A stretch of 64,000 nt of DNA from Mobula hypostoma. Its lineage: Eukaryota. The notes beneath the pieces are model-generated. The model ran no database searches. It saw nothing but the letters and a program-made list of their open reading frames with translations, and was not told the DNA's origin. Numbering within the stretch: position 1 is the first letter of the stretch; the number at the start of each line of letters is the position of its first letter. The stretch covers positions 98,582,001 to 98,646,000 of the forward strand of contig NC_086097.1 in the NCBI RefSeq assembly GCF_963921235.1. Direction: 5' to 3'. The position numbers were made by a program, and so were the translations under genes. This document shows positions 5,824-63,999 of the stretch, in pieces.

Positions 5824-5924
5824 GTAAGGAACTGGCTGAACGCTTACTAGGAGCATCGTGCATGTCAGCCTGGGCTTAGTGTGACCATACTTGCCCTTAT
5901 TAATATTTAATTTGCTTTATTGAG

Positions 5925-6190
5925 ATAACAGCTCAGTACAGGCCCTTTTGGCCCTTTGAGCTACGCCACCCAGCAACCCCTGATTTAACCCTAGTCTAAT
6001 TACAGGACAATTTAATGTGACTATTTAACCCACTAACTAGTACATCTTTGGACTTTGCAAGAAGCCAGAGTTCCCAGTGAAAACCCATGCATTCCACAGG
6101 GGGGATGTACAGATGACATCAGAATTGAACTTTGAACTCCAGTCCCCCAAGTTGTAATAGCGGTGCACAAGCAGCTATGCTATATCATCA
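5925..6190 (-). mobile_element. tRNA-derived SINE with V-domain-like core and CR1-like tail
   Basis: catctttggact...gaagccagagttcccagtgaaaacccatgca core and acaggcccttttggccc tail; similar to 24590-24860. Confidence 0.75.
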
Positions 6191-29282: not shown

Positions 29283-29323
<41 letters not shown>

Positions 29324-29461: not shown

Positions 29462-29506
<45 letters not shown>

Positions 29507-32500: not shown

Positions 32501-33262
32501 TGACCCACTCACACACACTGATACAGATACATCCCCACTCACACACACACTGATACAGATACGACCCAGTCACAATCACTGATACAGATACGTCCCCACT
32601 CACACACACTGATACAGATACGTCCCCACACACACACACACAGTGATACAGATACGTCCCCCCACACTCACACACACACTGATACAGATACGTCCCCACA
32701 CACACACTGATACAGATACGTCCCCACTCACACACTGATACAGATACGTCCCACACACACACACTGATACAGATACGTCCCCCCACACTCACACACACAC
32801 TGATACAGATACGTCCCCCCACACTCACACACACACTGATACGGATACGTCCCCCCACACTCACACACACACTGATACAGATACGTCCCCCCACACTCAC
32901 ACACACACTGATACGGATACGTCCCCACTCTCACACACTGATACGGATACATCCCCCCACTCACACACACTGATACAGATACGTCCCACACACACACACT
33001 GATACAGATACGTCCCCCCACACTCACACACACACTGATACGGATACGTCCCCACTCTCACACACTGATACGGATACATCCCCCCACTCACACACACTGA
33101 TACAGATACGTCCCACACACACACACTGATACAGATACGTCCCACACACACACACTGATACAGATACGACCCCACTCTCACACACACTGATACAGATACG
33201 TCCCACTCACACACACACTGATACAGATACATCCCCACACACACACTGATACGGATACATCC
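27474..33262. repeat. 5.8-kb compound minisatellite: core CTGATACAGATACGTCCCCACT plus variable (CA)n, unit mostly about 26-34 bp
   Basis: Directly visible tandem array with occasional long (CA)n expansions, e.g. 28436-28492. Confidence 0.98.
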
Positions 33263-34544: not shown

Positions 34545-34780
34545 TATGTGGGAGATACAGCCTCGCATCATAATCTCTTCTGGTCCTTTGAGCTACCTCA
34601 TCCAGCAATCCCCCAATTTATTCCCAGCTTGAACATAGGACAATTTAGAGTGATCAATCAACATCTTTGGACTGTGGGAAGAAACCCACACAGTCATGGG
34701 AGAGAATACGGAGGGAATTAAACCTAAGTTGTTTGCTCTGTGAAGAGTTGTGCTAAGCACTACACTACTGTACAGCCCTA
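34545..34780 (-). mobile_element. Degenerate V-SINE-like element
   Basis: ggacaatttagagtga..catctttggactgtgggaagaaacccacacagtcatgggagagaa core. Confidence 0.65.
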
Positions 34781-36230: not shown

Positions 36231-36234
36231 AAGT

Positions 36235-36429
36235 AGCCCGGTGGTGGCACTGGCAACAGAGCCACCACCTCAGAGACTAACCTCGGGTTGTCTATCTGGA
36301 GTTTGCATGCTCTCCCTGGAAATGTGTGGGCCTTTGCATGTCTCAGTAAGGTGAGTTGGTCACTGTAAACTGGCCCTAGTGTGTGTAAATGAGTGGTAAA
36401 ATGTGTGTGGAGTTAATGAGAATAAAAAA
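36235..36429 (+). mobile_element. 5' and central part of a V-SINE-like element that runs directly into the satellite
   Basis: Degenerate tRNA-like head, ggagtttgcatgctctccct..gtgtggg and ttggtcactgtaaactggccctagtgtgt; reverse complement of the cores at 24660-24770 and 34640-34710. Confidence 0.75.
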
Positions 36430-39400
36430 TGTAATTGGTGTAGGGTTAGTGTCAGGAGGTGACTGATGGTAATTGGTGTAGGGTTAGTGTCAGTAGGTGA
36501 CTGGTTGTAATTGGTGTAGGGTTAGTGTCAGGAGGTGACAGGTGGTTGTAATTGGTGTAGGGTTAGTGTCAGGAGGTGACTGGTGGTTGTAATTGGTGTA
36601 GGGTTAGTGTCAGGAGGTGACTGGTTGTAATTGGTGTAGGGTTAGTGTCAGGAGGTGACTGGTTGTAATTGGTGTAGGGTTAGTGTCAGTAGGTGACTGG
36701 TTGTAATTGGTGTAGGGTTAGTATCAGGAGGTGACTGGTTGTAATTGGTGTCGGGTTAGTGTCAGGAGGTGACTGGTGGTTGTAATTGGTGTAGGGTTAG
36801 TGTCAGTAGGTGACTGGTTGTAATTGGTGTAGGGTTAGTGTCAGTAGGTGACTGGTTGTAATTGGTGTAGGGTTAGTGTGAGGAGGTGACTGGTTGTAAT
36901 TGGTGTCGGGTTAGTGTCAGTAGGTGACTGGTGGTTGTAATTGGTGTAGTTTAGTGTCAGTAGGTGACTGGTTGTAATTGGTGTAGGGTTAGTGTCAGGA
37001 GGTGACTGGTGGTTGTAATTGGTGTAGGGTTAGTGTCAGGAGGTGACTGGTTGTAATTGGTGTAGGGTTAGTGTCAGGAGGTGACTGGTTGTAATTGGTG
37101 TAGGGTTAGTGTCAGTAGGTGACTGGTTGTAATTGGTGTAGGGTTAGTATCAGGAGGTGACTGGTTGTAATTGGTGTCGGGTTAGTGTCAGGAGGTGACT
37201 GGTGGTTGTAATTGGTGTAGGGTTAGTGTCAGTAGGTGACTGGTTGTAATTGGTGTAGGGTTAGTGTCAGTAGGTGACTGGTTGTAATTGGTGTAGGGTT
37301 AGTGTGAGGAGGTGACTGGTTGTAATTGGTGTCGGGTTAGTGTCAGTAGGTGACTGGTTGTAATTGGTGTAGGGTTAGTGTCAGGAGGTGACTGGTTGTA
37401 ATTGGTGCAGGGTTAGTGTCAGGAGGTGACTGGTGGTTGTAATTGGGGTAGGGTTAGTGTCAGGAGGTGACTGGTGGTTGTAATTGGTGTAGGGTTAGTG
37501 TCAGTAGGTGACTGGTTGTAATTGGTGTAGGGTTAGTGTCAGGAGGTGACTGGTTGTAATTGGTGTAGGGTTAGTGTCAGTAGGTGACTGGTTGTAATTG
37601 GTGTAGGGTTAGTGTCAGGAGGTGACTGGTTGTAATTGGTGTCGGGTTAGTGTCAGGAGGTGACTGGTGGTTGTAATTGGTGTAGGGTTAGTGTCAGGAG
37701 GTGACTGGTGGTTGTAATTGGTGTAGGGTTAGTGTCAGTAGGTGACTGGTTGTAATTGGTGTAGGTTTAGTGTCAGTAGGTGACTGGTTGTAATTGGTGT
37801 AGGGTTAGTGTCAGGAGGTGACAGGTGGTTGTAATTGGTGTCGGGTTAGTGTCAGGAGGTGACTGGTGGTTGTAATTGGTGCAGGGTTAGTGTCAGGAGG
37901 TGACTGGTTGTAATTGGTGTAGGGTTAGTGTCAGTAGGTGACTGGTGGTTGTAATTGGTGTAGGGTTAGTGTCGGGGGTGACTGGTGGTTGTAATTGGTG
38001 TAGGGTTAGTGTCAGGAGGTGACTGGTGGTTGTAATTGGAGTAGGGTTAGTGTCAGAAGGTGACTGATGGTAATTGGTGTAGGGTTAGTGTCAGTAGGTG
38101 ACTGGTTGTAATTGGTGTAGGGTTAGTGTCAGTAGGTGACTGGTTGTAATTGGTGTCGGGTTAGTGTCAGTAGGTGACTGGTTGTAATTGGTGTAGGGTT
38201 AGTGTCAGGAAGTGACTGGTTGTAATTGGTGTAGGGTTAGTGTCAGGAGGTGACTGGTGGTTGTAATTGGTGTAGGGTTAGTGTCAGTAGGTGACTGGTT
38301 GTAAATGGTGTAGGGTTAGTGTCAGGAGGTGACTGGTTGTAATTGGTGTCGGGTTAGTGTCAGGAGGTGACTGGTGGTTGTAATTGGTGTAGGGTTAGTG
38401 TCAGGAGGTGACTGGTGGTAATTGGTGTAGGGTTAGTGTCAGTAGGTGACTGGTTGTAATTGGTATAGGGTTAGTGTCAGGAGGTGACAGGTGGTTGTAA
38501 TTGGTGTTGGGTTAGTGTCAGGAGGTGACTGGTGGTTGTAATTGGTGCAGGGTTAGTGTCAGGAGGTAACTGGTGGTTGTAATTGGTGCAGGGTTAGTGT
38601 CAGGAAGTGACTGGTTGTAATTGGTGTAGGGTTAGTGTCAGGAGGTGACTGGTGGTTGTAATTGGTGTAGGGTTAGTGTCGGGGGTGACTGGTGGTTGTA
38701 ATTGGTGTAGGGTTAGTGTCAGGAGGTGACTGGTGGTTGTAATTGGAGTAAGGTTAGTGTCAGAAGGTGACTGATGGTAATTGGTGTAGGGTTAGAGTCA
38801 GTAGGTGACTGGTTGTAATTGGTGTAGGGTTAGTGTCAGCAGGTGACTGGTTGTAATTGGTGTCGGGTTAGTGTCAGTAGGTGACTGGTTGTAATTGGTG
38901 TAGGGTTAGTGTCAGGAAGTGACTGGTTGTAATTGGTGTAGGGTTAGTGTCAGGAGGTGACTGGTGGTTGTAATTGGTGTAGGGTTAGTGTCAGTAGGTG
39001 ACTGGTTGTAAATGGTGTAGGGTTAGTGTCAGGAGGTGACTGGTTGTAATTGGTGTCGGGTTAGTGTCAGGAGGTGACTGGTGGTTGTAATTGGTGTAGG
39101 GTTAGTGTCAGGAGGTGACTGGTGGTAATTGGTGTAGGGTTAGTGTCAGTAGGTGACTGGTTGTAATTGGTATAGGGTTAGTGTCAGGAGGTGACAGGTG
39201 GTTGTAATTGGTGCAGGGTTAGTGTCAGGAGGTAACTGGTGGTTGTAATTGGTGCAGGGTTAGTGTCAGGAGGTGACAGGTGGTTGTAATTGGTGCAGGG
39301 TTAGTGTCAGGAGGTGACTGGTGGTTGTAATTAGTGCAGGGTTAGTGTCAGGAGGTGACTGGTTGTAATTGGTGTAGGGGTAGTGTCAGTAGGTGACTGG

Positions 39401-42400
39401 TTGTAATTGGTGTAGGGTTAGTGTCAGGAATTGACTGGTTGTAATTGGTGTAGGGTTAGTGTCAGGAGGTGACTGGTGGTTGTAATTGGTGTAGGGTTAG
39501 TGTCGGGGGTGACTGGTGGTTGTAATTGGTGTAGGGTTAGTGTCAGGAGGTGACTGGTGGTTGTAATTGCAGTAGGGTTAGTGTCAGGAGGTGACTGATG
39601 GTAATTGGTGTAGGGTTAGTGTCAGGAGGTGACTGGTTGTAATTGGTGTAGGGTTAGTGTCAGGAGGTGACTGGTGGTTGTAATTGGTGTAGGGTTAGTG
39701 TCAGTAGGTGACTGGTTGTAATTGGTGTCGGGTTAGTGTCAGTAGGTGACTGGTTGTAATTGGTGTAGGGTTAGTATCAGGAGGTGACTGGTTGTAATTG
39801 GTGTAGGGTTAGTGTCAGGAGGTGACTGGTGGTTGTAATTGGGGTAGGGTTAGTGTCAGGAGGTGACTGGTGGTTGTAATTGGTGTAGGGTTAGTGTCAG
39901 TAGGTGACTGGTTGTAATTGGTGTAGGGTTAGTGTCAGGAGGTGACTGGTTGTAATTGGTGTCAGGTTAGTGTCAGTAGGTGACTGGTTGTAATTGGTGT
40001 AGGGTTAGTGTCAGGAGGTGACTGGTTGTAATTGGTGTAGGGTTAGTGTCAGGAAGTGACTGGTTGTAATTGGTGTAGGGTTAGTGTCAGGAGGTGACTG
40101 GTGGTTGTAATTGGGGTAGGGTTAGTGTCAGGAGGTGACTGGTGGTTGTAATTGGTGTAGGGTTAGTGTCAGTAGGTGACTGGTTGTAATTGGTGTAGGG
40201 TTAGTGTCAGGAGGTGACTGGTTGTAATTGGTGTCGGGTTAGTGTCAGGAGGTGACTGGTGGTTGTAATTGGTGTAGGGTTAGTGTCAGTAGGTGACTGG
40301 TTGTAATTGGTGTAGGGTTAGTGTCAGGAAGTGACTGGTTGTAATTGGTGTAGGGTTAGTGTCAGGAGGTGACTGGTGGTTGTAATTGGTGTAGGGTTAG
40401 TGTCAGTAGGTGACTGGTTGTAATTGGTGTAGGGTTAGTGTCAGGAGGTGACTGGTTGTAATTGGTGTCGGGTTAGTGTCAGGAGGTGACTGGTGGTTGT
40501 AATTGGTGTAGGGTTAGTGTCAGGAGGTGACTGGTGGTAATTGGTGTAGGGTTAGTGTCAGTAGGTGACAGGTTGTAATTGGTGTAGGGTTAGTGTCAGG
40601 AGGTGACAGGTGGTTGTAATTGGTGTCGGGTTAGTGTCAGGAGGTGACAGGTGGTTGTAATTGGTGTCGGGTTAGTGTCAGGAGGTGACTGGTGGTTGTA
40701 ATTGGTGCAGGGTTAGTGTCAGGAGGTGACTGGTGGTTGTAATTGGTGCAGGGTTAGTGTCAGGAGGTGACAGGTGGTTGTAATGGGTGCAGGGTTAGTG
40801 TCAGGAGGTGACTGGTGGTTGTAATTGGTGTAGGGTTAGTGTCAGTAGGTGACTGGTTGTAATTGGTGTAGGGTTAGTGTCAGTAGGTGACTGGTTGTAA
40901 TTGGTGTAGGGTTAGTGTCAGGAGGTGACTGGTGGTTGTAATTGGTGTAGGGTTAGTGTCAGGAGGTGACTGGTGGTTGTAATTGGTGTAGGGTTAGTGT
41001 CAGGAGGTGACTGGTGGTTGTAATTGGAGTAGGGTTAGTGTCAGGAGGTGACTGATGGTAATTGGTGTAGGGTTAGTGTCAGTAGGTGACTGGTTGTAAT
41101 TGGTGTAGGGTTAGTGTCAGGAGGTGACTGGTTGTAATTGGTGTAGGGTTAGTGTCAGGAGGTGACTGGTGGTTGTAATTGGTGTAGGGTTAGTGTCAGT
41201 AGGTGACTGGTTGTAATTGGTGTCGGGTTAGTGTCAGTAGGTGACTGGTTGTAATTGGTGTAGGGTTAGTGTCTGGTTGTAATTGGTGTAGGGTTAGTGT
41301 CAGGAAGTGACTGGTTGTAATTGGTGTAGGGTTAGTGTCAGGAGGTGACTGGTGGTTGTAATTGGTGTAGGGTTAGTGTCGGGGGTGACTAGTGGTTGTA
41401 ATTGGTGTAAGGTTAGTGTCAGGAGGTGACTGGTGGTTGTAATTGGTGTAGGGTTAGTGTCAGGAGGTGACTGGTGGTTGTAATTGGTGTAGGGTTAGTG
41501 TCAGGAGGTGACTGGTTGTAATTGGTGTAGGGTTAGTGTCAGGAGGTGACTGGTTGTAATTGGTGTAGGGTTAGTGTCAGGAGGTGACTGGTGGTTGTAA
41601 TTGGGGTAGGGTTAGTGTCAGGAGGTGACTGGTGGTTGTAATTGGTGTAGGGTTAGTGTCAGTAGGTGACTGGTTGTAATTGGTGTAGGGTTAGTGTCAG
41701 GAGGTGACTGGTTGTAATTGGTGTAGGGTTAGTGTCAGGAGGTGACTGGTGGTTGTAATTGGTGTAGGGTTAGTGTCAGTAGGTGACTGGTTGTAATTGG
41801 TGTAGGGTTAGTGTCAGGAGGTGACTGGTTGTAATTGGTGTAGGGTTAGTGTCAGGAGGTGACTGGTGGTTGTAATTGGTGTAGGGTTAGTGTCAGGAGG
41901 TGACTGGTTGTAATTGGTGTAGGGTTAGTGTCAGGAGGTGACTGGTTGTAATTGGTGTCGGGTTAGTGTCAGGAGGTGACTGGTGGTTGTAATTGGTGTA
42001 GGGTTAGTGTCAGGAGGTGACTGGTGGTAATTGGTGTAGGGTTAGTGTCAGTAGGTGACAGGTTGTAATTGGTGTAGGGTTAGTGTCAGGAGGTGACAGG
42101 TGGTTGTAATTGGTGTCGGGTTAGTGTCAGGAGGTGATTGGTGGTTGTAATTGGTGCAGGGTTAGTGTCAGGAGGTGACTGGTGGTTGTAATTGGTGCAG
42201 GGTTAGTGTCAGGAGGTGACAGGTGGTTGTAATGGGTGCAGGGTTAGTGTCAGGAGGTGACTGGTGGTTGTAATTGGTGCAGGGTTAGTGTCAGGAGGTG
42301 ACTGGTTGTAATTGGTGTAGGGTTAGTGTCAGTAGGTGACTGGTTGTAATTGGTGTAGGGTTAGTGTCAGGAAGTGACTGGTTGTAATTGGTGTAGGGTT

Positions 42401-45400
42401 AGTGTCAGGAGGTGACTGGTGGTTGTAATTGGTGTAGGGTTAGTGTCGGGGGTGACTGGTGGTTGTAATTGGTGTAGGGTTAGTGTCAGGAGGTGACTGG
42501 TGGTTGTAATTGGAGTAGGGTTAGTGTCAGGAGGTGACTGATGGTAATTGGTGTAGGGTTAGTGTCAGTAGGTGACTGGTTGTAATTGGTGTAGGGTTAG
42601 TGTCAGGAGGTGACTGGTTGTAATTGGTGTAGGGTTAGTGTCAGGAGGTGACTGGTGGTTGTAATTGGTGTAGGGTTAGTGTCAGGAGGTGACTGGTTGT
42701 AATTGGTGTCGGGTTAGTGTCAGTAGGTGACTGGTTGTAATTGGTGTAGGGTTAGTGTCAGGAGGTGACTGGTGGTTGTAATTGGTGTAGGGTTAGTGTC
42801 AGGAGGTGACTGGTGGTTGTAATTGGTGTAGGGTTAGTGTCAGGAGGTGACAGGTGGTTGTAATTGGTGTAGGGTTAGTGTCAGTAGGTGACTGGTTGTA
42901 ATTGGTGTAGGGTTAGTGTCAGGAGGTGACTGGTTGTAATTGGTGTAGGGTTAGTGTCAGGAGGTGACTGGTTGTAATTGGTGTAGGGTTAGTGTCAGGA
43001 GGTGACTGGTGGTTGTAATTGGTGTAGGGTTAGTGTCAGGGGGTGACTGGTGGTTGTAATTGGTGTAGGGTTAGTGTCAGGAGGTGACTGGTGGTTGTAA
43101 TTGGTGTAGGGTTAGTGTCAGTAGGTGACTGGTTGTAATTGGTGTAGGGTTAGTGTCAGGAGGTGACTGGTTGTAATTGGTGTAGGGTTAGTGTCAGGAG
43201 GTGACTGGTGGTTGTAATTGGTGTAGGGTTAGTGTCAGGAGGTGACTGGTGGTTGTAATTGGTGTAGGGTTAGTGTCAGTAGGTGACTGGTTGTAATTGG
43301 TGTAGGGTTAGTGTCAGGAGGTGACTGGTTGTAATTGGTGTAGGGTTAGTGTCAGGAGGTGACTGGTGGTTGTAATTGGTGTAGGGTTAGTGTCAGGAGG
43401 TGACTGGTTGTAATTGGTGTAGGGTTAGTGTCAGGAGGTGACTGGTTGTAATTGGTGTAGGGTTAGTGTCAGGAGGTGACTGGTGGTTGTAATTGGTGTA
43501 GGGTTAGTGTCAGGAGGTGACTGGTGGTAATTGGTGTAGGGTTAGTGTCAGTAGGTGACTGGTTGTAATTGGTGTAGGGTTAGTGTCAGGAGGTGACAGG
43601 TGGTTGTAATTGGTGTAGGGTTAGTGTCAGGAGGTGACTGGTGGTTGTAATTGGTGTCGGGTTAGTGTCAGGAGGTGACTGGTGGTTGTAATTGGTGCAG
43701 GGCTAGTGTCAGGAGGTGACAGGTGGTTGTAATTGGTGCAGGGTTAGTGTCAGGAGGTGACTGGTTGTAATTGGGGCAGGGTTAGTGTCAGGAGGTGACT
43801 GGTGGTTGTAATTGGTGTAGGGTTAGTGTCAGTAGGTGACTGGTTGTAATTGGTGTAGGGTTAGTGTCAGGAGGTGACTGGTTGTAATTGGTGTAGGGTT
43901 AGTGTCAGGAGGTGACTGGTGGTTGTAATTGGTGTGGGTTAGTGTCAGGAGGTGACTGGTGGTTGTAATTGGTGTAGGGTTAGTGTCAGGAGGTGACTGG
44001 TGGTTGTAATTGGTGTAGGGTTAGTGTCAGGAGGTGACTGGTGGTTGTAATTGGTGTAGGGTTAGTGTCAGGAGGTGACTGGTTGTAATTGGTGTAGGGT
44101 TAGTGTCAGGAGGTGACTGGTTGTAATTGGTGTAGGGTTAGTGTCAGTAGGTGACTGGTTGTAATTGGTGTGTAGGGTTAGTGTCAGGAGGTGACTGGTT
44201 GTAATTGGTGTAGGGTTAGTGTCAGTAGGTGACTGGTGGTTGTAATTGGTGTAGGGTTAGTGTCAGTAGGTGACTGGTTGTAATTGGTGTAGGGTTAGTG
44301 TCAGGAGGTGACTGGTGGTTGTAATTGGTGTAGGGTTAGTGTCAGGAGGTGACTGGTGGTTGTAATTGGTGTAGGGTTAGTGTCAGTAGGTGACTGGTTG
44401 TAATTGGTGTAGGGTTAGTGTCAGGAGGTGACTGGTTGTAATTGGTGTCGGGTTAGTGTCAGGAGGTGACTGGTGGTTGTAATTGGTGTAGGGTTAGTGT
44501 CAGGAGGTGACTGGTGGTTGTAATTGGTGTAGGGTTAGTGTCAGTAGGTGACTGGTTGTAATTGGTGTAGGGTTAGTGTCAGGAGGTGACTGGTGGTTGT
44601 AATTGGTGTAGGGTTAGTGTCAGGAGGTGACTGGTGGTTGTAATTGGTGTAGGGTTAGTGTCAGGAGGTGACTGGTTGTAATTGGTGTAGGGTTAGTGTC
44701 AGTAGGTGACTGGTTGTAATTGGTGTAGGGTTAGTGTCAGGAGGTGACTGGTGGTTGTAATTGGTGTAGGGTTAGTGTCAGGAGGTGACTGGTGGTTGTA
44801 ATTGGTGTAGGGTTAGTGTCAGGAGGTGACTGGTGGTTGTAATTGGTGTAGGGTTAGTGTCAGGAGGTGACTGGTTGTAATTGGTGTAGGGTTAGTGTCA
44901 GGAGGTGACTGGTTGTAATTGGTGTAGGGTTAGTGTCAGGAGGTGACTGGTGGTTGTAATTGGTGTAGGGTTAGTGTCAGGAGGTGACTGGTTGTAATTG
45001 GTGTAGGGTTAGTGTCAGGAGGTGACTGGTGGTTGTAATTGGTGTAGGGTTAGTGTCAGGAGGTGACTGGTGGTTGTAATTGGTGTAGGGTTAGTGTCAG
45101 GAGGTGACAGGTGGTTGTAATGGGTGCAGGGTTAGTGTCAGGAGGTGACTGGATGTAATTGGTGTAGGGTTAGTGTCAGGAGGTGACTGGTGGTTGTAAT
45201 TGGTGCAGGGTTAGTGTCAGGAGGTGACTGGTTGTAATTGGTGTAGGGTTAGTGTCAGTAGGTGACTGGTTGTAATTGGTGTAGGGTTAGTGTCAGGAGG
45301 TGACTGGTGGTTGTAATTGGTGTAGGGTTAGTGTCAGGAGGTGACTGGTGGTTGTAATTGGTGTAGGGTTAGTGTCAGGAGGTGACTGGTGGTTGTAATT

Positions 45401-48400
45401 GGTGTAGGGTTAGTGTCAGGAGGTGACTGGTGGTTGTAATTGGTGTAGGGTTAGTGTCAGGAGGTGACTGGTGGTTGTAATTGGTGTAGGGTTAGTGTCA
45501 GGAGGTGACTGGTTGTAATTGGTGTAGGGTTAGTGTCAGGAGGTGACTGGTGGTTGTAATTGGTGTAGGGTTAGTGTCAGGAGGTGACTGGTGGTTGTAA
45601 TTGGTGTAGGGTTAGTGTCAGGAGGTGACTGGTGGTTGTAATTGGGTAGGGTTAGTGTCAGAGGTGACTGTGTTGTAATTGGTGTAGGGTTAGTGTCAGT
45701 AGGTGACTGGTTGTAATTGGTGTAGGGTTAGTGTCAGGAGGTGACTGGTTGTAATTGGTGTAGGGTTAGTGTCAGGAGGTGACTGGTGGTTGTAATTGGT
45801 GTAGGGTTAGTGTCAGGAGGTGACTGGTTGTAATTGGTGTAGGGTTAGTGTCAGGAGGTGACTGGTGGTTGTAATTGGTGTAGGGTTAGTGTCAGGAGGT
45901 GACTGGTTGTAATTGGTGTAGGGTTAGTGTCAGGAGGTGACTGGTTGTAATTGGTGTAGGGTTAGTGTCAGGAGGTGACTGGTGGTTGTAATTGGTGTAG
46001 GGTTAGTGTCAGGAGGTGACTGGTGGTTGTAATTGGTGTAGGGTTAGTGTCAGGAGGTGACTGGTTGTAATTGGTGTAGGGTTAGTGTCAGGAGGTGACA
46101 GGTGGTTGTAATTGGTGTCGGGTTAGTGTCAGGAGGTGACTGGTGGTTGTAATTGGTGCAGGGTTAGTGTCAGGAGGTGACTGGTGGTTGTAATTGGTGC
46201 AGGGTTAGTGTCAGGAGGTGACTGGTTGTAATTGGTGTAGGGTTAGTGTCAGGAGGTGACTGGTGGTTGTAATTGGTGTAGGGTTAGTGTCAGTAGGTGA
46301 CTGGTTGTAATTGGTGTAGGGTTAGTGTCAGGAGGTGACTGGTGGTTGTAATTGGTGTAGGGTTAGTGTCAGGAGGTGACTGGTGGTTGTAATTGGTGTA
46401 GGGTTAGTGTCAGTAGGTGACTGGTTGTAATTGGTGTAGGGTTAGTGTCAGGAGGTGACTGGTGGTTGTAATTGGTGTAGGGTTAGTGTCAGTAGGTGAC
46501 TGGTTGTAATTGGTGTAGGGTTAGTGTCAGGAGGTGACTGGTTGTAATTGGTGTAGGGTTAGTGTCAGGAGGTGACTGGTGGTTGTAATTGGTGTAGGGT
46601 TAGTGTCAGTAGGTGACTGGTTGTAATTGGTGTAGGGTTAGTGTCAGGAGGTGACTGGTTGTAATTGGTGTCGGGTTAGTGTCAGGAGGTGACTGGTGGT
46701 TGTAATTGGTGTAGGGTTAGTGTCAGGAGGTGACTGGTGGTTGTAATTGGTGTAGGGTTAGTGTCAGGAGGTGCCTGGTGGTTGTAATTGGTGTAGGGTT
46801 AGTGTCAGGAGGTGACTGGTGGTTGTAATTGGTGCAGGGTTAGTGTCAGGAGGTGACAGGTGGTTGTAATGGGTGCAGGGTTAGTGTCAGGAGGTGACTG
46901 GTGGTTGTAATTGGTGCAGGGTTAGTGTCAGGAGGTGACTGGTGGTTGTAATTGGTGCAGGGTTAGTGTCAGGAGGTGACTGGTGGTTGGAATTGGTGTA
47001 GGGTTAGTGTCAGTAGGTGACTGGTTGTAATTGGTGTAGGGTTAGTGTCAGGAGGTGACTGGTTGTAATTGGTGTAGGGTTAGTGTCAGGAGGTGACTGG
47101 TGGTTGTAATTGGTGTAGGGTTAGTGTCAGGAGGTGACTGGTGGTTGTAATTGGTGTAGGGTTAGTGTCAGGAGGTGACTGGTGGTTGTAATTGGTGTAG
47201 GGTTAGTGTCAGTAGGTGACTGGTTGTAATTGGTGTAGGGTTAGTGTCAGGAGGTGACTGGTTGTAATTGGTGTAGGGTTAGTGTCAGGAGGTGACTGGT
47301 GGTTGTAATTGGTGTAGGGTTAGTGTCAGTAGGTGACTGGTTGTAATTGGTGTAGGGTTAGTGTCAGTAGGTGACTGGTTGTAATTGGTGTAGGGTTAGT
47401 GTCAGGAGGTGACTGGTGGTTGTAATTGGTGTAGGGTTAGTGTCAGGAGGTGACTGGTGGTTGTAATTGGTGTAGGGTTAGTGTCGGGGGTGACTGGTGG
47501 TTGTAATTGGTGTAGGGTTAGTGTCAGGAGGTGACTGGTTGTAATTGGTGTAGGGTTAGTGTCAGGAGGTGACTGGTTGTAATTGGTGTAGGGTTAGTGT
47601 CAGTAGGTGACTGGTTGTAATTGGTGTAGGGTTAGTGTCAGGAGGTGACTGGTTGTAATTGGTGTAGGGTTAGTGTCAGGAGGTGATGGTGGTTGTAATT
47701 GGTGTAGGGTTAGTGTCAGGAGGTGACTGGTGGTTGTAATTGGTGTAGGGTTAGTGTCAGGAGGTGACTGGTGGTTGTAATTGGTGTAGGGTTAGTGTCA
47801 GTAGGTGACTGGTTGTAATTGGTGTAGGGTTAGTGTCAGGAGGTGACTGGTTGTAATTGGTGTAGGGTTAGTGTCAGGAGGTGACTGGTGGTTGTAATTG
47901 GTGTAGGGTTAGTGTCAGTAGGTGACTGGTTGTAATTGGTGTAGGGTTAGTGTCAGGAGGTGACTGGTTGTAATTGGTGTAGGGTTAGTGTCAGGAGGTG
48001 ACTGGTGGTTGTAATTGGTGTAGGGTTAGTGTCAGTAGGTGACTGGTTGTAATTGGTGTAGGGTTAGTGTCAGGAGGTGACTGGTTGTAATTGGTGTAGG
48101 GTTAGTGTCAGGAGGTGACTGGTGGTTGTAATTGGTGTAGGGTTAGTGTCAGGAGGTGACTGGTGTTGTAATTGGTGTAGGGTTAGTGTCAGTAGGTGAC
48201 TGGTTGTAATTGGTGTAGGGTTAGTGTCAGGAGGTGACAGGTGGTTGTAATTGGTGTCGGGTTAGTGTCAGGAGGTGACTGGTGGTTGTAATTGGTGTAG
48301 GGTTAGTGTCAGGAGGTGACTGGTGGTTGTAATTGGTGCAGGGTTAGTGTCAGGAGGTGACAGGTGGTTGTAATGGGTGCAGGGTTAGTGTCAGGAGGTG

Positions 48401-54400: not shown

Positions 54401-57400
54401 TTGTAATTGGTGTAGGGTTAGTGTCAGGAGGTGACTGGTTGTAATTGGTGTCGGGTTAGTGTCAGGAGGTGACTGGTGGTTGTAATTGGTGTAGGGTTAG
54501 TGTCAGGAGGTGACTGGTGGTAATTGGTGTAGGGTTAGTGTCAGTAGGTGACTGGTTGTAATTGGTGTAGGGTTAGTGTCAGGAGGTGACAGGTGGTTGT
54601 AATTGGTGTCGGGTTAGTGTCAGGAGGTGACTGGTGGTTGTAATTGGTGCAGGGCTAGTGTCAGGAGGTGACAGGTGGTTGTAATGGGTGCAGGGTTAGT
54701 GTCAGGAGGTGACTGGTTGTAATTGGTGTAGGGTTAGTGTCAGTAGGTGACTGGTTGTAATTGGTGTAGGGTTAGTGTCAGGAAGTGACTGGTTGTAATT
54801 GGTGTAGGGTTAGTGTCAGGAGGTGACTGGTGGTTGTAATTGGTGTAGGGTTAGTGTCGGGGGTGACTGGTGGTTGTAATTGGTGTAGGGTTAGTGTCAG
54901 GAGGTGACTGGTGGTTGTAATTGGAGTAGGGTTAGTGTCAGGAGGTGACTGATGGTAATTGGTGTAGGGTTAGTGTCAGTAGGTGACTGGTTGTAATTGG
55001 TGTAGGGTTAGTGTCAGGAGGTGACTGGTTGTAATTGGTGTAGGGTTAGTGTCAGGAGGTGACTGGTGGTTGTAATTGGTGTAGGGTTAGTGTCAGTAGG
55101 TGACTGGTTGTAATTGGTGTCGGGTTAGTGTCAGTAGGTGACTGGTTGTAATTGGTGTAGGGTTAGTGTCAGGAGGTGACTGGTTGTAATTGGTGTAGGG
55201 TTAGTGTCAGGAGGTGACTGGTGGTTGTAATTGGGGTAGGGTTAGTGTCAGGAGGTGACTGGTGGTTGTAATTGGTGTAGGGTTAGTGTCAGTAGGTGAC
55301 TGGTTGTAATTGGTGTAGGGTTAGTGTCAGGAGGTGACTGGTTGTAATTGGTGTCAGGTTAGTGTCAGTAGGTGACTGGTTGTAATTGGTGTAGGGTTAG
55401 TGTCAGGAGGTGACTGGTTGTAATTGGTGTAGGGTTAGTGTCAGGAGGTGACTGGTGGTTGTAATTGGGGTAGGGTTAGTGTCAGGAGGTGACTGGTGGT
55501 TGTAATTGGTGTAGGGTTAGTGTCAGGAAGTGACTGGTTGTAATTGGTGTAGGGTTAGTGTCAGGAGGTGACTGGTGGTTGTAATTGGTGTAGGGTTAGT
55601 GTCAGTAGGTGACTGGTTGTAATTGGTGTAGGGTTAGTGTCAGGAGGTGACTGGTTGTAATTGGTGTCGGGTTAGTGTCAGGAGGTGACTGGTGGTTGTA
55701 ATTGGTGTAGGGTTAGTGTCAGGAGGTGACTGGTGGTAATTGGTGTAGGGTTAGTGTCAGCAGTTGACAGGTTGTAATTGGTGTAGGGTTAGTGTCAGGA
55801 GGTGACAGGTGGTTGTAATTGGTGTCGGGTTAGTGTCAGGAGGTGACTGGTGGTTGTAATTGGTGCAGGGTTAGTGTCAGGAGGTGACTGGTGGTTGTAA
55901 TTGGTGCAGGGTTAGTGTCAGGAGGTGACTGGTGGTTGTAATTGGTGCAGGGTTAGTGTCAGGAGGTGACAGGTGGTTGTAATGGGTGCAGGGTTAGTGT
56001 CAGGAGCTGACTGGTGGTTGTAATTGGTGCAGGGTTAGTGTCAGTAGGTGACTGGTTGTAGTTGGTGTAGGGTTAGTGTCAGGAAGTGACTGGTTGTAAT
56101 TGGTGTAGGGTTAGTGTCAGGAGGTGACTGGTGGTTGTAATTGGTGAGAGTTAGTGTCAGGAGGTGACTGGTGGTTGTAATTGGTGTAGGGTTAGTGTCA
56201 GTAGGTGACTGGTTGTAATTGGTGTCGGGTTAGTGTCAGTAGGTGACTGGTTGTAATTGGTGTAGGGTTAGTGTCAGGAGGTGACTGGTGGTTGTAATTG
56301 GTGTAGGGTTAGTGTCAGGAGGTTACTGGTGGTAATTGGTGTAGGTTAGTGTCAGTAGGTGACTGGTTGTAATTGGTGTAGGGTTAGTGTCAGGAAGTGA
56401 CTGGTTGTAATTGGTGTAGGGTTAGTGTCAGGAGGTGACTGGTGGTTGTAATTGGTGTAGGGTTAGTGTCGGGGGTGACTGGTGGTTGTAATTGGTGTAG
56501 GGTTAGTGTCAGGAGGTGACTGGTGGTTGTAATTGGAGTAGGGTTAGTGTCAGGAGGTGACTGATGGTAATTGGTGTAGGGTTAGTGTCAGTAGGTGACT
56601 GGTTGTAATTGGTGTAGGGTTAGTGTCAGGAGGTGACTGGTTGTAATTGGTGTAGGGTTAGTGTCAGGAGGTGACTGGTGGTTGTAATTGGTGTAGGGTT
56701 AGTGTCAGTAGGTGACTGGTTGTAATTGGTGTAGGGTTAGTGTCAGGAGGTGACTGGTGGTTGTAATTGGTGTAGGGTTAGTGTCAGGAGGTGACTGGTG
56801 GTTGTAATTGGTGTAGGGTTAGTGTCAGTAGGTGACTGGTTGTAATTGGTGTAGGGTTAGTGTCAGGAGGTGACTGGTTGTAATTGGTGTAGGGTTAGTG
56901 TCAGGAGGTGACTGGTTGTAATTGGTGTAGGGTTAGTGTCAGGAGGTGACTGGTGGTTGTAATTGGTGTAGGGTTAGTGTCAGGAGGTGACTGGTGGTTG
57001 TAATTGGTGTAGGGTTAGTGTCAGTAGGTGACTGGTTGTAATTGGTGTAGGGTTAGTGTCAGGAGGTGACTGGTTGTAATTGGTGTCGGGTTAGTGTCAG
57101 GAGGTGACTGGTGGTTGTAATTGGTGTAGGGTTAGTGTCAGGAGGTGACTGGTGGTAATTGGTGTAGGTTAGTGTCAGTAGGTGACTGGTTGTAATTGGT
57201 GTAGGGTTAGTGTCAGGAGGTGACTGGTGGTTGTAATTGGTGTCGGGTTAGTGTCAGGAGGTGACTGGTGGTTGTAATTGGTGTAGGGTTAGTGTCAGTA
57301 GGTGACTGGTTGTAATTGGTGTAGGGTTAGTGTCAGGAGGTGACTGGTTGTAATTGGTGTCGGGTTAGTGTCAGGAGGTGACTGGTGGTTGTAATTGGTG

Positions 57401-60400
57401 TAGGGTTAGTGTCAGGAGGTGACTGGTGGTAATTGGTGTAGGTTAGTGTCAGTAGGTGACTGGTTGTAATTGGTGTAGGGTTAGTGTCAGGAAGTGACTG
57501 GTTGTAATTGGTGTAGGGTTAGTGTCAGGAGGTGACTGGTGGTTGTAATTGGTGAGAGTTAGTGTCAGGAGGTGACTGGTGGTTGTAATTGGTGTAGGGT
57601 TAGTGTCAGTAGGTGACTGGTTGTAATTGGTGTAGGGTTAGTGTCAGAAGGTGACTGGTTGTAATTGGTGTCGGGTTAGTGTCAGGAGGTGACTGGTGGT
57701 TGTAATTGGTGTAGGGTTAGTGTCAGGAGGTGACTGGTGGTTGTAATTGGTGTAGGGTTAGTGTCAGTAGGTGACTGGTTGTAATTGGTGTAGGGTTAGT
57801 GTCAGTAGGTGACTGGTTGTAATTGGTGTAGGGTTAGTGTCAGGAGGTGACTGGTGGTTGTAATTGGTGTAGGGTTAGTGTCGGGGGTGACTGGTGGTTG
57901 TAATTGGTGTAGGGTTAGTGTCAGGAGGTGACTGGTGGTTGTAATTGGTGTAGGGTTAGTGTCAGGAGGTGACTGGTGGTAATTGGTGTAGGTTAGTGTC
58001 AGTAGGTGACTGGTTGTAATTGGTGTTGGGTTAGTGTCAGGAGGTGACTGGTTGTAATTGGTGTAGGGTTAGTGTCAGGAGGTGACTGGTTGTAATTGGT
58101 GTAGGGTTAGTGTCAGGAGGTGACTGGTGGTTGTAATTGGGGTAGGGTTAGTGTCAGGAGGTGACTGGTGGTTGTAATTGGTGTAGGGTTAGTGTCAGTA
58201 GGTGACTGGTTGTAATTGGTGTAGGGTTAGTGTCAGGAGGTGACTGGTTGTAATTGGTGTCGGGTTAGTGTCAGGAGGTGACTGGTGGTTGTAATTGGTG
58301 TAGGGTTAGTGTCAGGAGGTGACTGGTGGTAATTGGTGTAGGTTAGTGTCAGTAGGTGACTGGTTGTAATTGGTGTTGGGTTAGTGTCAGGAGGTGACTG
58401 GTGGTTGTAATTGGTGTCGGGTTAGTGTCAGGAGGTGACTGGTGGTTGTAATTGGTGTAGGGTTAGTGTCAGTAGGTGACTGGTTGTAATTGGTGTAGGG
58501 TTAGTGTCAGGAGGTGACTGGTTGTAATTGGTGTCGGGTTAGTGTCAGGAGGTGACTGGTGGTTGTAATTGGTGTAGGGTTAGTGTCAGGAGGTGACTGG
58601 TGGTAATTGGTGTAGGTTAGTGTCAGTAGGTGACTGGTTGTAATTGGTGTAGGGTTAGTGTCAGGAAGTGACTGGTTGTAATTGGTGTAGGGTTAGTGTC
58701 AGGAGGTGACTGGTGGTTGTAATTGGTGTAGGGTTAGTGTCAGGAGGTGACTGGTGGTTGTAATTGGTGTAGGGTTAGTGTCAGTAGGTGACTGGTTGTA
58801 ATTGGTGTAGGGTTAGTGTCAGGAGGTGACTGGTTGTAATTGGTGTCGGGGTAGTGTCAGGAGGTGACTGGTGGTTGTAATTGGTGTAGAGTTAGTGTCA
58901 GGAGGTGACTGGTGGTTGTAATTGGTGTAGGGTTAGTGTCAGGAGGTGACTGGTGGTTGTAATTGGTGTAGGGTTAGTGTCAGGAGGTGACTGGTTGTAA
59001 TTGGTGTAGGGTTAGTGTCAGTAGGTGACTGGTTGTAATTGGTGTAGGGTTAGTGTCAGGAGGTGACTGGTTGTAATTGGTGTAGGGTTAGTGTCAGGAG
59101 GTGACTGGTTGTAATTGGTGTAGGGTTAGTGTCAGGAGGTGACTGGTGGTTGTAATTGGTGTAGGGTTAGTGTCAGGAGGTGACTGGTGGTTGTAATTGG
59201 TGTAGGGTTAGTGTCAGTAGGTGACTGGTTGTAATTGGTGTAGGGTTAGTGTCAGGAGGTGACTGGTTGTAATTGGTGTCGGGTTAGTGTCAGGAGGTGA
59301 CTGGTGGTTGTAATTGGTGTAGGGTTAGTGTCAGGAGGTGACTGGTGGTAATTGGTGTAGGTTAGTGTCAGTAGGTGACTGGTTGTAATTGGTGTTGGGT
59401 TAGTGTCAGGAGGTGACTGGTGGTTGTAATTGGTGTCGGGTTATTGTCAGGAGGTGACTGGTGGTTGTAATTGGTGTAGGGTTAGTGTCAGTAGGTGACT
59501 GGTTGTAATTGGTGTAGGGTTAGTGTCAGGAGGTGACTGGTTGTAATTGGTGTAGGGTTAGTGTCAGGAGGTGACTGGTGGTTGTAATTGGTGTAGGGTT
59601 AGTGTCAGGAGGTGACTGGTGGTAATTGGTGTAGGTTAGTGTCAGTAGGTGACTGGTTGTAATTGGTGTAGGGTTAGTGTCAGGAAGTGACTGGTTGTAA
59701 TTGGTGTAGGGTTAGTGTCAGGAGGTGACTGGTGGTTGTAATTGGTGTAGGGTTAGTGTCAGGAGGTGACTGGTGGTTGTAATTGGTGTAGGGTTAGTGT
59801 CAGTAGGTGACTGGTTGTAATTGGTGTAGGGTTAGTGTCAGGAGGTGACTGGTTGTAATTGGTGTAGGGTTAGTGTCAGGAGGTGACTGGTGGTTGTAAT
59901 TGGGGTAGGGTTAGTGTCAGGAGGTGACTGGTGGTTGTAATTGGTGTAGGGTTAGTGTCAGTAGGTGACTGGTTGTAATTGGTGTAGGGTTAGTGTCAGT
60001 AGGTGACTGGTTGTAATTGGTGTAGGGTTAGTGTCAGGAGGTGACTGGTGGTTGTAATTGGTGTAGGGTTAGTGTCGGGGGTGACTGGTGGTTGTAATTG
60101 GTGTAGGGTTAGTGTCAGGAGGTGACTGGTGGTTGTAATTGGTGTAGGGTTAGTGTCAGGAGGTGACTGGTGGTAATTGGTGTAGGGTTAGTGTCAGTAG
60201 GTGACTGGTTGTAATTGGTGTAGGGTTAGTGTCAGGAGGTGACTGGTGGTTGTAATTGGTGTAGGGTTAGTGTCAGGAGGTGACTGGTGGTTGTAATTGG
60301 TGTAGGGTTAGTGTCAGTAGGTGACTGGTTGTAATTGGTGTAGGGTTAGTGTCAGGAGGTGACTGGTTGTAATTGGTGTAGGGTTAGTGTCAGGAGGTGA

Positions 60401-63055
60401 CTGGTGGTTGTAATTGGTGTAGGGTTAGTGTCAGGAGGTTACTGGTGGTAATTGGTGTAGGTTAGTGTCAGTAGGTGACTGGTTGTAATTGGTGTAGGGT
60501 TAGTGTCAGGAAGTGACTGGTTGTAATTGGTGTAGGGTTAGTGTCAGGAGGTGACTGGTTGTAATTGGTGTAGGGTTAGTGTCAGGAGATGACTGGTGGT
60601 AATTCGTGTAGGGTTAGTGTCGGGGGTGAGTGGTGGTTGTAATTGGTGTAGGGTTAGTGTCAGGAGGTGACTGGTGGTTGTAATTGGTGTAGGGTTAGTG
60701 TCAGGAGGTGACTGGTGGTTGTAATTGGTGTAGGGTTAGTGTCAGGAGGTGACTGGTTGTAATTGGTGTAGGGTTAGTGTCAGTAGGTGACTGGTTGTAA
60801 TTGGTGTAGGGTTAGTGTCAGGAGGTGACTGGTTGTAATTGGTGTCGGGTTAGTGTCAGGAGGTGACTGGTGGTTGTAATTGGTGTAGGGTTAGTGTCAG
60901 GAGGTGACTGGTTGTAATTGGTGTAGGGTTAGTGTCAGGAGGTGACTGGTTGTAATTGGTGTAGGGTTAGTGTCAGGAGGTGACTGGTGGTTGTAATTGG
61001 TGTAGGGTTAGTGTCAGGAGGTGACTGGTGGTAATTGGTGTAGGGTTAGTGTCAGTAGGTGACTGGTTGTAATTGGTGTAGGGTTAGTGTCAGGAGGTGA
61101 CTGGTTGTAATTGGTGTAGGGTTAGTGTCAGGAGGTGACTGGTGGTTGTAATTGGTGTAGGGTTAGTGTCAGGAGGTGACTGGTGGTTGTAATTGGTGTA
61201 GGGTTAGTGTCAGTAGGTGACTGGTTGTAATTGGTGTAGGGTTAGTGTCAGTAGGTGACTGGTGGTTGTAATTGGTGTAGGGTTAGTGTCAGGAGGTGAC
61301 TGGTTGTAATTGGTGTAGGGTTAGTGTCAGGAGGTGACTGGTGGTTGTAATTGGTGTAGGGTTAGTGTCAGTAGGTGACTGGTTGTAATTGGTGTAGGGT
61401 TAGTGTCAGGAGGTGACTGGTTGTAATTGGTGTCGGGTTAGTGTCAGGAGGTGACTGGTGGTTGTAATTGGTGTAGGGTTAGTGTCAGGAGGTGACTGGT
61501 GGTTGTAATTGGTGTAGGGTTAGTGTCAGGAGGTGACTGGTGGTTGTAATTGGTGTAGGGTTAGTGTCAGGAGGTGACTGGTGGTTGTAATTGGGGTAGG
61601 GTTAGTGTCAGGAGGTGACTGGTGGTTGTAATTGGTGTAGGGTTAGTGTCAGTAGGTGACTGGTGGTAATTCGTGTAGGGTTAGTGTCGGGGTGAGTGGT
61701 GGTTGTAACTGGTGTAGGGTTAGTGTCAGGAGGTGACTGGTGGTAATTCGTGTAGGGTTAGTGTCGGGAAGTGACTGGTTGTAATTGGTGTAGGGTTAGT
61801 GTCAGGAGGAGACTGGTTGTAATTGGTGTAGGGTTAGTGTCAGGAAGTGACCGGTTGTAATTGGTGTCGGGTTAGTGTCAGGAGGAGACTGGTTGTAATT
61901 GGTATAGGGTTAGTGTCAGGAGGAGACTGGTTGTAATTGGTATAGGGTTAGTGTCAGGAGATGACTGGTGGTAATTGGTGTAGGGTTTGTGTCAGGGGTT
62001 CGTGGTGGTTGTAATTGGTGTAGGGTTGGTGTCAGGAGGTGACTGGTTGTAATTGGTGTCGGGTTTGTATCAGTAGGTGACTGGTTGTAATAGAAACATA
62101 GAAAATAGGTGCAGGAGTAGGCCATTCGGCATTTCGAGCCTGCACCGCCATTCAGTATGATCATGGCTGATCATCCAACTCAGAACCCTGCACCAGCCTT
62201 CCCTCCATACCCCCTGATCCCTTTAGCCACAAGGGCCATATCTAACTCCCTCTTAAATATAGCCAATGAACTGGCCTCAACCGTTTCCCGTGGCAGAGAA
62301 TTCCACAGATTTACCACTCTCTGTGTGAAGAAGTTTTTCCTAATCTCCGTCCTAAATTGTTTCCCCTTTATCCTCAAACTGTGACTCCTCGTTCTGGACT
62401 TCCCCAACATCGGGAACAATCTTCCTGCATCTAGCCTTTCCAATCCTTTTAGGATTTTATACGTTTCAATAAGATCCCCCCTCAATCTTCTAAATTCCAA
62501 TGAATGTAAGCCTAGTCGATCCAGTCTTTCATCATATGAAAGTCCTGCCATCCCAGGAATCAATCTGGTGAACCTTCTTTGTACTCCCTCTATGGCAAGG
62601 ATGTCTTTCCTCAGATTAGGGGACCAAAACTGCACACAATACTCCAGGTGTGGTCTCACCAAGGCCTTGTACACCTGCAGTAGTACCTCCCTGCTCCTGT
62701 TCTCGAATCCTCTTGCTATGAATGCCAGCATACCGTTCGCCTTTTTCACTGCCTGCTGTACCTGCATGCCCACTTTCAATGACTGGTGTAGGGTTAGAGT
62801 CAGGGGGTGACTGGTGGTTGTAATTGGTGTAGGGTTAGCGTCAGGAGGTGACTGGTGGTTGTAATTGGTGTAGGGTTAGTGTCAGGAGGTGACTGGTGGT
62901 AATTGGTGTAGGTTAGTGTCAGGAGGTGACTGATGGTAATTGGTGTAGGGTTAGTGTCAGGAGGTGACTGGTGGTTGTAATTGGAGTAGGGTTAGTGTCA
63001 GGGGGTGACTGGTGGTAATTGGTGTAGGGTTAGTGTCGGGGGTGACTGGTGGTTG
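36430..63055. repeat. 26.6-kb satellite array, unit 38 or 41 bp: TTGTAATTGGTGTAGGGTTAGTGTCAG(G/T)AGGTGACTGG(TGG); roughly 650 units by length
   Basis: Directly visible; for example GGGTTAG recurs at 36601 and 36639. Interrupted only by the CR1 at 62091-62790. Units are more divergent at 61650-62090. Confidence 0.99.
62091..62790 (-). mobile_element. Young 5'-truncated CR1 LINE inserted in the satellite
   Basis: Uninterrupted 199-aa ORF2 C-terminus (62180-62779; LVRPHLEYCVQFWSP, RRLRGDLIETYKIL, NFFTQRVVNLWNSLP), intact 3' UTR and a TTTCTATG-type tail. Confidence 0.96.
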
Positions 63056-63797
63056 CATGGACTGCCAGATCTCTATGAACCCACTTCTGTGTTTATGTCC
63101 ATTGACACACTGACTTGGTGTTGTGAGGCTACTCCAGTGTTGTTTTCTATTACACTCTGTTTCCTTGGACCAATTTTTTGTTGAAATATGGACGTCAGCC
63201 AGCTATTTTCCTTCAGCATCCATCAGCTTACAACTCCAATGTAAGACCTGGATGAGGCATTGCTCTCTTTCCATGGTGGATGCACAAGTTATTTTGAATT
63301 GTTGTCCCTGTGTCCTTCACTCTGCAGACTTTACAAGAGTCCTTTATTGAACCATATAACAATTACAGCACAGAAACAGGCCATCTCAGCCCTTCTAGTC
63401 TGTGCTGAACTCTTACTATCTATCCCTACTTGTGAATTATTACAGAAAGAGAACTAGAAAAATTAGAATATCGTAAAAAGTTGTCTGCATTTAATATTTT
63501 CAAGCACATGATCATCACAGCAGTATGAGAAAGCATGTGACTGCTAACGAACTTTGGTTGCCAGTTTGGCCTACAGCTGTAGGTTGGTGAGAATGCACAA
63601 GTCTTGTATTGCTATTGCTTCCACACGTGAACACAGAGAAAGCAGAACCCTCTGCAGTCAATGGCAGTCTGACCTTGACTCTGGAGGGCCACCCGTTTGA
63701 GTTTGGAGGGCGTTGTCCTGTGACGGTGAGCTGTGTGTGGCTGGAGGCAGGACCTCCACACAGGGAGGAAACCCAGCTGCTGGTAAGGGAAATGGAT

Positions 63798-63999
63798 GGC
63801 CTCGATCACAAACTGGTGCGGGTCCTCGCTGTGCAGCAGTGACGAGTCACAGCGAGTAGTCTGGGTTGTAGCCCAGATGGCCACTGCAGGCCATGATCTG
63901 TGCTGGCTCAGCCTGGTCCAGGTACAGTGGGCTGCCTGCCGTGGCTGTGTACATTGGTGGCACCCTGCCCCCCCCCCCCATCCATCCATGGAACTGTAC
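63798..63999 (-). pseudogene. CHAC1: Disrupted CHAC1-like (glutathione-specific gamma-glutamylcyclotransferase) terminal exon, continuing beyond the right edge of the window
   Basis: Frame from 63999 reads VQFHGWMGGGGRVPPMYTATAGSPLYLDQAEPAQIMACSGHLGYNPDYSL*L, then after a frameshift EDPHQFVIEA. Aligns to recalled human CHAC1 VTFY...AYVATPQNPGYLGPAPEEAIATQILACRGFSGHNLEYLLRL...QDEHLAAI. Position convergent with INO80 matches human synteny. Confidence 0.75.

What the first reader, a model, noticed from the sequence alone, without database searches (positions are those of the whole stretch)
36235..63080. A 26.6-kb satellite apparently grew inside a single SINE copy, pushing its two halves apart
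Seen: a V-SINE-like body (36235-36429) runs without a gap into the first satellite unit. At the far end the last unit runs into gcatggact..tctctatga (63055-63078), which resembles the CR1-like tails elsewhere in the window (acatggact at about 19664; ttctatgact at about 25475). The minus-strand SINE at 5925-6190 has one unit-like sequence: the reverse complement of 5966-6003 is GTAATTAGACTAGGGTTAAATCAGGGGTTGCTGGGTGG versus satellite GTAATTGGTGTAGGGTTAGTGTCAGGAGGTGACTGGTGG, about 30 of 40 columns matching by eye. Inference: a ~38-bp segment of the SINE 3' region was amplified about 650-fold in place, a locus-level record of satellite birth from a SINE.
Basis: partly seen in the sequence, partly recalled or inferred. 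Interest (0 to 1): 0.75.

Follow-up and report, generated by a model that had tools for sequence, protein, structure and literature searches.

The report
Satellite grown inside an old SINE
A 26-kb block of about 660 copies of a 38-41-base repeat grew on the spot from a short repeat at the 3' end of an old, decayed mobile element (a SINE), and a related species still has only about three copies there; this is a clear example of a process already described in lizards and snakes.

Summary
The array is real: 659 units of mostly 38 or 41 bp at 36432-63056. It starts flush with a decayed V-SINE body. Growth in place is well supported. In organism D (92% identical here), one single-copy contig crosses the SINE body and about three units and runs on for about 1 kb, with no amplified unit. 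Organism B (98%) has an intermediate amount. In the source organism, unit depth is within about 0.75-5 times what this locus alone predicts. That the unit is SINE sequence is moderately supported: its best match in the window lies just before the tail of another V-SINE (window-wide p about 0.02), but that copy has a different body. The 'far half' is only about 25 bases and is not significant (p about 0.1), so 'two halves pushed apart' overstates it. About 19 old units sit around the LINE; 640 homogenised units lie on the 5' side. SINE-derived satellites of this size are published for squamates. New member of a known kind, with a useful three-species series.

The parts
36236..36431 (+). Decayed V-SINE 5' part (head remnant, V domain with an internal deletion of about 30-35 bases, body), ending in an A-rich stretch
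   Evidence: V motifs at 36298-36316 and 36366-36385; nhmmer hit of a profile of three window SINEs, E=0.0007; dispersed contigs laid on 36284-36447 in all four runs. The start coordinate is approximate.
36432..61628 (+). Young, homogenised block: 640 units of mostly 38 or 41 bp, a mosaic of recurrent variants, G/T-rich on the + strand (42% G, 6% C over the main array)
   Evidence: 0.83-0.86 differences per unit; 0-9% of 31-mers seen only once
61629..62091 (+). Old zone left of the LINE: 12 units with private changes, plus the first 4 bases of the unit that the LINE splits
   Evidence: 2.55 differences per unit (11 units tested) against 0.86, Mann-Whitney p=4e-6 with units treated as independent; 70% of 31-mers seen once; the worst 11-unit window elsewhere is 2.0
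62092..62783 (-). 5'-truncated CR1-like LINE 3' end with an open ORF2 C-terminal frame, inserted into a unit with no duplication or loss of target bases
   Evidence: 187 codons without a stop; 57% identical over 155 aa to the ORF next to the RT domain of the window's LINE at 13561-16416; junctions. The CR1 label is recalled, not from a library hit.
62784..63056 (+). Right block: the rest of the split unit and 6 more units
   Evidence: 1.83 differences per unit, 42% of 31-mers seen once
63056..63080 (+). Possible remnant of the SINE's LINE-type tail (two short motifs, the conserved middle missing); not established
   Evidence: 29 of 300 random windows score as high; not among significant matches
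5915..6190 (-). Comparator only: V-SINE of a sister type whose segment 5966-6004, just before its tail, resembles the unit
   Evidence: Score 39.5, best of 2126 windows; 4 of 200 shuffled units reach it anywhere in the non-array window

Best explanation
This is a single-locus minisatellite that grew in place from a segment in the 3' part of one old V-SINE copy. Order of events: (1) the SINE inserted and decayed, losing its B box and part of the V domain (decay shown; the V-domain deletion is shared with organism D, so it is older than that split, inferred). (2) A 38-41-bp segment was duplicated to about three copies before the split from D (about three units in D shown; slippage or unequal exchange at a 2-bp TG overlap is inferred). 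(3) In the lineage to B and the source organism the seed expanded, to the order of 100 units in B (rough) and 659 here. (4) A LINE 3' end inserted into a unit near the 3' end. (5) Later growth and homogenisation happened on the 5' side, by duplication and exchange of blocks of several units, while about 19 units around the LINE stayed out of the turnover (pattern shown, mechanism inferred). I see no sign of a function; it is most likely neutral, replication- and recombination-driven repeat turnover.
For:: in organism D (runs X13 and X15, one sample) a 2,554/2,557-bp contig of single-copy depth (14 and 9.4) covers 35300-36505 in one piece with 92-93 other letters. It shows a single go-back joint of 33 bases and continues for about 1,013 letters. 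Depth on 36448-36488 is 21.2 and 15.6 in D, 1,726 in B (flank 2.8) and 42,814 in the source organism (flank 8.83). In D, other contigs add depth across 36284-36447 and into the unit (23.5 vs 14 and 18.1 vs 9.4 at 36454-36457), so the 5' part of the unit has dispersed look-alikes in a genome without an array; k=31 unitigs of this array alone predict 907-6,283 single-copy units of depth at 36466 when all unitigs are laid; 4,687 is observed; the unit's best match outside the array lies in a V-SINE, directly before its LINE-type tail; repeated blocks of up to 10 identical units (shuffles: 5-8), variants of the terminal units recur through the interior, and there is strong old/young polarity.
Against: No consensus of the parent SINE family could be obtained. 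The unit matches 1 of 3 sister-type copies; the three-copy profile hits the body but neither the unit nor the right side. The tail remnant is not significant. The A-rich stretch just before unit 1 looks like the A-rich ends of frog V-SINE consensuses and could be the SINE's own end. The letters of D's contig beyond the third unit were not shown, so its join to the right flank is inferred from length only. The depth simulation depends on the tool's unknown length cut-off: with only unitigs of 35 bases or more laid, it predicts 408 or less, which would imply many more copies elsewhere. The tool warns that depth is no copy number. X2 may be the window's source, so it is not independent.
Confidence: 0.75

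Rival explanations
1. The array grew in place, but its unit is not part of this SINE copy. The SINE ends at the A-run (about 36421-36429), and the seed was neighbouring DNA or the 3' piece of a second, sister-type SINE.
For: A-rich end at the junction, like published frog V-SINE ends; tail remnant not significant; no target-site duplication; the only significant match of the unit is to a SINE with a different body.
Against: In D, extra contigs cover the bin that holds the junction (36407-36447: 82 and 68 against 14 and 9.4) and thin out inside unit 1, though the output does not show that single contigs cross the junction. In the sister copy, unit-like sequence and tail start follow in the same order as here.
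Confidence: 0.15
2. The common ancestor had a long array and organism D lost most of it, so D is a contraction and not the seed.
For: Only three organisms were examined and none is known to be an outgroup; tandem arrays can shrink (general knowledge).
Against: The 640-unit block is highly homogeneous, which fits recent growth. B is intermediate. One gain is simpler than an old gain plus a loss (inference).
Confidence: 0.05
3. The unit belongs to a dispersed satellite family that was brought next to the SINE from elsewhere.
For: The observed unit depth is up to about 5 times the lower simulations, and far above those with a length cut-off; 399 loose-end rows were not shown.
Against: D has the units at this site and no amplified unit in the run; the one loose end listed at the array start in the source organism is more unit sequence.
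Confidence: 0.03
4. The array length is largely an assembly artefact.
Against: 94 distinct units and no identical run longer than 10 units, so it is not a mechanically duplicated block; depth on the unit is thousands of times the flank's; the left junction is identical in a contig of the source sample up to 36459.
Confidence: 0.02

Closest known systems
SINE-derived satellites (sSat1-3) of squamate reptiles (Vassetzky, Kosushkin and Ryskov 2023, PMC10702118; parts 1-4 of 5 of the text read)
   Same: A part of a SINE repeated in tandem, with SINE sequence continuing at an end of the array; loci of up to 320, about 950 and over 1,200 units; long loci more homogeneous; locus-specific subvariants; an uncommon form with both SINE termini; unit number differs between orthologous loci.
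   Different: Unit of 38-41 bp against about 70-290; a V-SINE in what looks like a cartilaginous fish, not Squam1-3; apparently one dominant locus, like the single long Sceloporus locus, not a family of thousands; here an orthologue with about three units against 659, and an internal LINE with an old/young polarity; subtelomeric position not tested.
TE-derived minisatellites of mammals: Alu-derived minisatellites, the mouse B1-derived VNTR family, Ms6-hm and Hm-2 in MaLR LTRs (as tabulated in PMC9659126; passages read; primary papers not seen)
   Same: Locus-specific expansion of a short internal piece of a retroelement; similar unit size for the Alu-derived ones (recalled).
   Different: Different host and element; this array is much longer than typical Alu-derived minisatellites (recalled, not checked).
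V-SINE superfamily, HE1 of sharks and rays with its partner LINE HER1 (PMC4824008 and PMC3747384 passages)
   Same: V-domain motifs in the right order; LINE-type tails on sister copies in the window.
   Different: No HE1 sequence was available, so the family is not assigned; this copy lacks a B box and part of the V domain.

Membership tests
V-SINE superfamily | Conserved central V domain | tested here: met
   Two motifs from published consensuses match at 18 of 19 and 19 of 20, in order, 0 of 100 shuffles. The spacing is 49 bases against about 81 in the bichir consensus counted by eye, so the middle is deleted.
V-SINE superfamily | tRNA-derived head with A and B boxes | tested here: inconclusive
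   A B-box motif scan (recalled motif, 1 mismatch) has no hit between 36235 and 36300; an A-box-like run at about 36240-36253 by eye only; head against the three window copies p=0.19, 0.05, 0.003. No Rfam hit in the window.
V-SINE superfamily | Dispersed, multi-copy element | tested here: met
   Depth on 36284-36324 is 44-76 times the flank's in all 4 runs; two B contigs join the V core to the 3' body in order (tables 2 and 5).
V-SINE superfamily | LINE-derived 3' tail | tested here: inconclusive
   Two short motifs at 63056-63078; 29 of 300 random windows score as high.
HE1 family | Collinear match to the HE1 consensus | not testable with these tools
   No HE1 sequence in the one supplement searched; figures are not held; the original papers were not read.
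SINE-derived satellites (sSat, PMC10702118) | Repeat unit is a part of a SINE | tested here: inconclusive
   Match to 1 of 3 sister-type copies (p=0.002 locally, 4 of 200 window-wide); dispersed look-alikes of the unit's 5' part in D; parent consensus missing.
SINE-derived satellites (sSat, PMC10702118) | At least four middle monomers in tandem | tested here: met
   659 units.
SINE-derived satellites (sSat, PMC10702118) | A terminal unit runs on into the SINE sequence | tested here: met
   5' side: unit 1 is flush with the V-SINE body here and in D. The 3' side is not established.
SINE-derived satellites (sSat, PMC10702118) | High homogeneity in long loci, with locus-specific variants | tested here: met
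   Mean 97.8% identity; recurrent variants.
SINE-derived satellites (sSat, PMC10702118) | Subtelomeric preference; many loci per genome in most snakes | not testable with these tools
   No genome held. Depth is compatible with one dominant locus.

The most novel reading that the evidence does not exclude
In this lineage, single retroelement copies repeatedly seed very large (10-70 kb) locus-specific arrays. This locus keeps the whole series in living relatives (about 3 units, of the order of 100, 659), with growth running from the 5' side while a LINE insertion froze the 3' end. If so, rays offer a dated, multi-locus system for measuring what turns a three-copy duplication into a satellite. 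Two earlier notes on this genome describe like cases (e1-7814136, e1-7814003); I did not check them.
Probability: 0.35. Interest if true: 0.58.

Novelty: new member of a known kind. Interest (0 to 1): 0.38.

Why it matters
The first steps of satellite birth are usually inferred, because the seed and its flanks are lost. Here the flanks are intact, a relative appears to keep the few-copy seed, a second relative is intermediate, and a LINE insertion marks time inside the array. That makes rate and polarity of growth testable at one locus, and it extends SINE-derived satellites beyond squamates, which the 2023 paper left open. It does not reveal a new mechanism or a function.

Tried and rejected
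No genome is held for this window, so no genome-wide search was possible. Pattern scans for SINE or tail copies in the microbial collections gave nothing useful: viral contigs 1, 0 and 0 hits, metagenomes 2 hits, genomes 0 and 0. All 3 hits were read and have no SINE context. Rfam: 0 matches. No target-site duplication. G-quadruplex as a driver is not supported: mean G4Hunter score 0.74, and 1.8% of 25-base windows reach 1.2, against 3.2% in the flank. No TTAGGG and no full Chi octamer in the array (0 each), although a 9-base telomere-like word occurs 517 times (both motifs recalled). No regular higher-order repeat: no identical run of 12 or more units, longest 10. My first segmentation gave 573 pieces because of a faulty anchor and was replaced. 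Earlier findings by relatives, sequence, words and near place: nothing.

Full report
Observation. The array is real. TRF reports 36430-62091 (period 38, 652 copies) and 62784-63055 (period 41, 6.9 copies). Segmentation gives 652 units in the main block, 326 of 38 bp and 286 of 41 bp, 94 distinct sequences, and mean identity 97.8% to the nearer of two common units. The total is 659 units and 25,933 bp. The insert is the 3' end of a LINE on the minus strand: it has 187 codons without a stop and is 57% identical over 155 residues to the ORF beside the RT domain of the LINE at 13561-16416. Calling it CR1 rests on recall. It splits one unit with no target bases duplicated or lost. One paralogous contig end suggests that 7 bases at its 5' junction fit both LINE and unit, a microhomology (inferred from one contig).

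The 5' neighbour is a decayed V-SINE. Two motifs from published V-SINE consensuses (PMC6887750, supplement part 17) match at 36298-36316 and 36366-36385 with one mismatch each, uniquely in the window, with 0 of 100 shuffles matching. They are 49 bases apart, against about 81 in the bichir consensus (counted by eye), and no B box was found. The body is a dispersed repeat: many contigs pile on 36284-36447 in all four runs laid. V-SINEs include HE1 of sharks and rays (PMC4824008 and PMC3747384, passages), but I had no HE1 sequence.

Is the unit SINE sequence? The match lies directly before that SINE's LINE-type tail. Against this, the copy is of a sister type, with the unit-like segment right after the V domain, and its two sisters do not match (p=0.24, 0.44). 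A profile of the three hits the body (E=0.0007) but not the unit. In organism D, which has no array, other contigs add depth over the junction bin and into unit 1 (23.5 vs 14 and 18.1 vs 9.4 at 36454-36457), so the unit's 5' part has dispersed look-alikes. My recollection of ray SINE copies also places such a segment between this body and the tail; that comes from no call and is not counted. The supposed far half is weak: about 25 bases, scored as high by 29 of 300 random windows, with no target-site duplication. The A-run just before unit 1 could be the SINE's own end. I put SINE-internal origin at about 0.75-0.8.

Growth in place is the best-supported part. The left flank found 16 holding runs in four organisms. 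I laid 4 of the 19 listed runs on 35300-36507 at 80% likeness. In D (two runs, one sample; 92% identical) one contig of 2,554/2,557 bp covers the stretch through both units, has a single joint that goes back 33 bases, and continues for about 1,013 letters. That reads as about three units followed by unlike sequence, whose letters were not shown. Depth on 36448-36488 relative to the flank is about 1.5 in D, 616 in B (98% identical) and 4,849 in the source organism. D's contig has 47 gap letters and is 13 shorter, hence 17 inserted letters in all, too few to restore the V-domain gap; so the SINE had decayed before the split (inference). Simulated k=31 unitigs of this array alone give 907-6,283 at position 36466 when all unitigs are laid, against 4,687 observed, so this locus can account for most copies. 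With a length cut-off of 35 bases or more the simulation gives 408 or less, so other loci are not excluded. Scaling B by the same ratio gives about 90 units, an order of magnitude only; B's flank contig stops at 36317, though a contig of flank-like depth carries the first unit's variant letter at 36466. The tool warns that depth is not copy number, and X2 may be the window's source.

Internal history. The 640 units from 36432 to 61628 carry 0.83-0.86 differences each, and 0-9% of their 31-mers are unique. The units just left of the LINE carry 2.55 differences (70% unique 31-mers) and those right of it 1.83 (42%). Identical blocks of up to 10 units recur at irregular distances, against 5-8 in 30 shuffles; variants seen in the terminal units recur through the interior; one 37-bp variant is confined to the 3' half. 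This fits turnover by duplication and exchange of multi-unit blocks, active up to the SINE body, with the LINE-bearing end left behind (inference). G-quadruplex potential is not raised. Nothing points to a function.

Comparison. PMC10702118 (parts 1-4 of 5 read) describes SINE-derived satellites in 56 squamate genomes, with loci of up to 320, about 950 and over 1,200 units, an uncommon form with both SINE termini, and orthologous loci that differ in unit number; it leaves open whether such satellites are confined to squamates. PMC9659126 (passages) lists Alu-, B1- and MaLR-derived minisatellites. I saw no report for cartilaginous fishes in the listings (20 of 187 shown; 14 of 14; 20 of 43; 20 of 46; 15 of 19), nor in passages of PMC5499810, PMC6887750 and bioRxiv 10.1101/2025.06.08.657570; the last notes that tandem-repeat-rich regions are common in a stingray genome. 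Searches were listings only. The library lacks most subscription papers.

Verdict. A real, well-anchored case of a known process: new member of a known kind, interest 0.38. Its value lies in the three-organism series and the LINE time mark, not in the 'two halves' picture.

Noticed in passing
window 62092-62783 (-): LINE 3' fragment with an open frame, inserted into a satellite unit without target duplication; 7-base microhomology at the 5' junction inferred from one paralogous contig end. It gives an internal time mark for the array.
   Followed up: partly
window 27475-33246: A second large array, 5.8 kb, about 184 copies of a roughly 32-bp CA-rich unit, 81% matches, 3 kb from the SINE. Its flanks show no obvious parent element by eye.
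   Followed up: partly
window 63790-63970 (-): A frame that recalls the last exon of CHAC1 (recalled likeness) holds an in-frame TGA and drifts off after it; Pfam and PDB gave no supporting hit. It may be a decayed copy, not a working gene.
   Followed up: partly
window 8429-8818 (+): ORF whose end recalls the INO80 C-terminus (recalled likeness); no Pfam hit above cut-off.
   Followed up: partly
window 13400-17000 (-): A long LINE copy with endonuclease and RT domains in several frames and a clean tail at 13400-13443.
   Followed up: partly
window 5915-6190, 24580-24856, 34545-34775 (all -): Three decayed copies of one V-SINE type, about 69-73% alike, distinct in the 3' body from the SINE at 36236: at least two V-SINE types share this region.
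   Followed up: yes
window 11014-11195: A 95-bp direct duplication, 95% identical: a small tandem seed that has not expanded.
   Followed up: no
window 36240-36269: A 30-base imperfect inverted repeat in the SINE head remnant (self-match at 80%).
   Followed up: no
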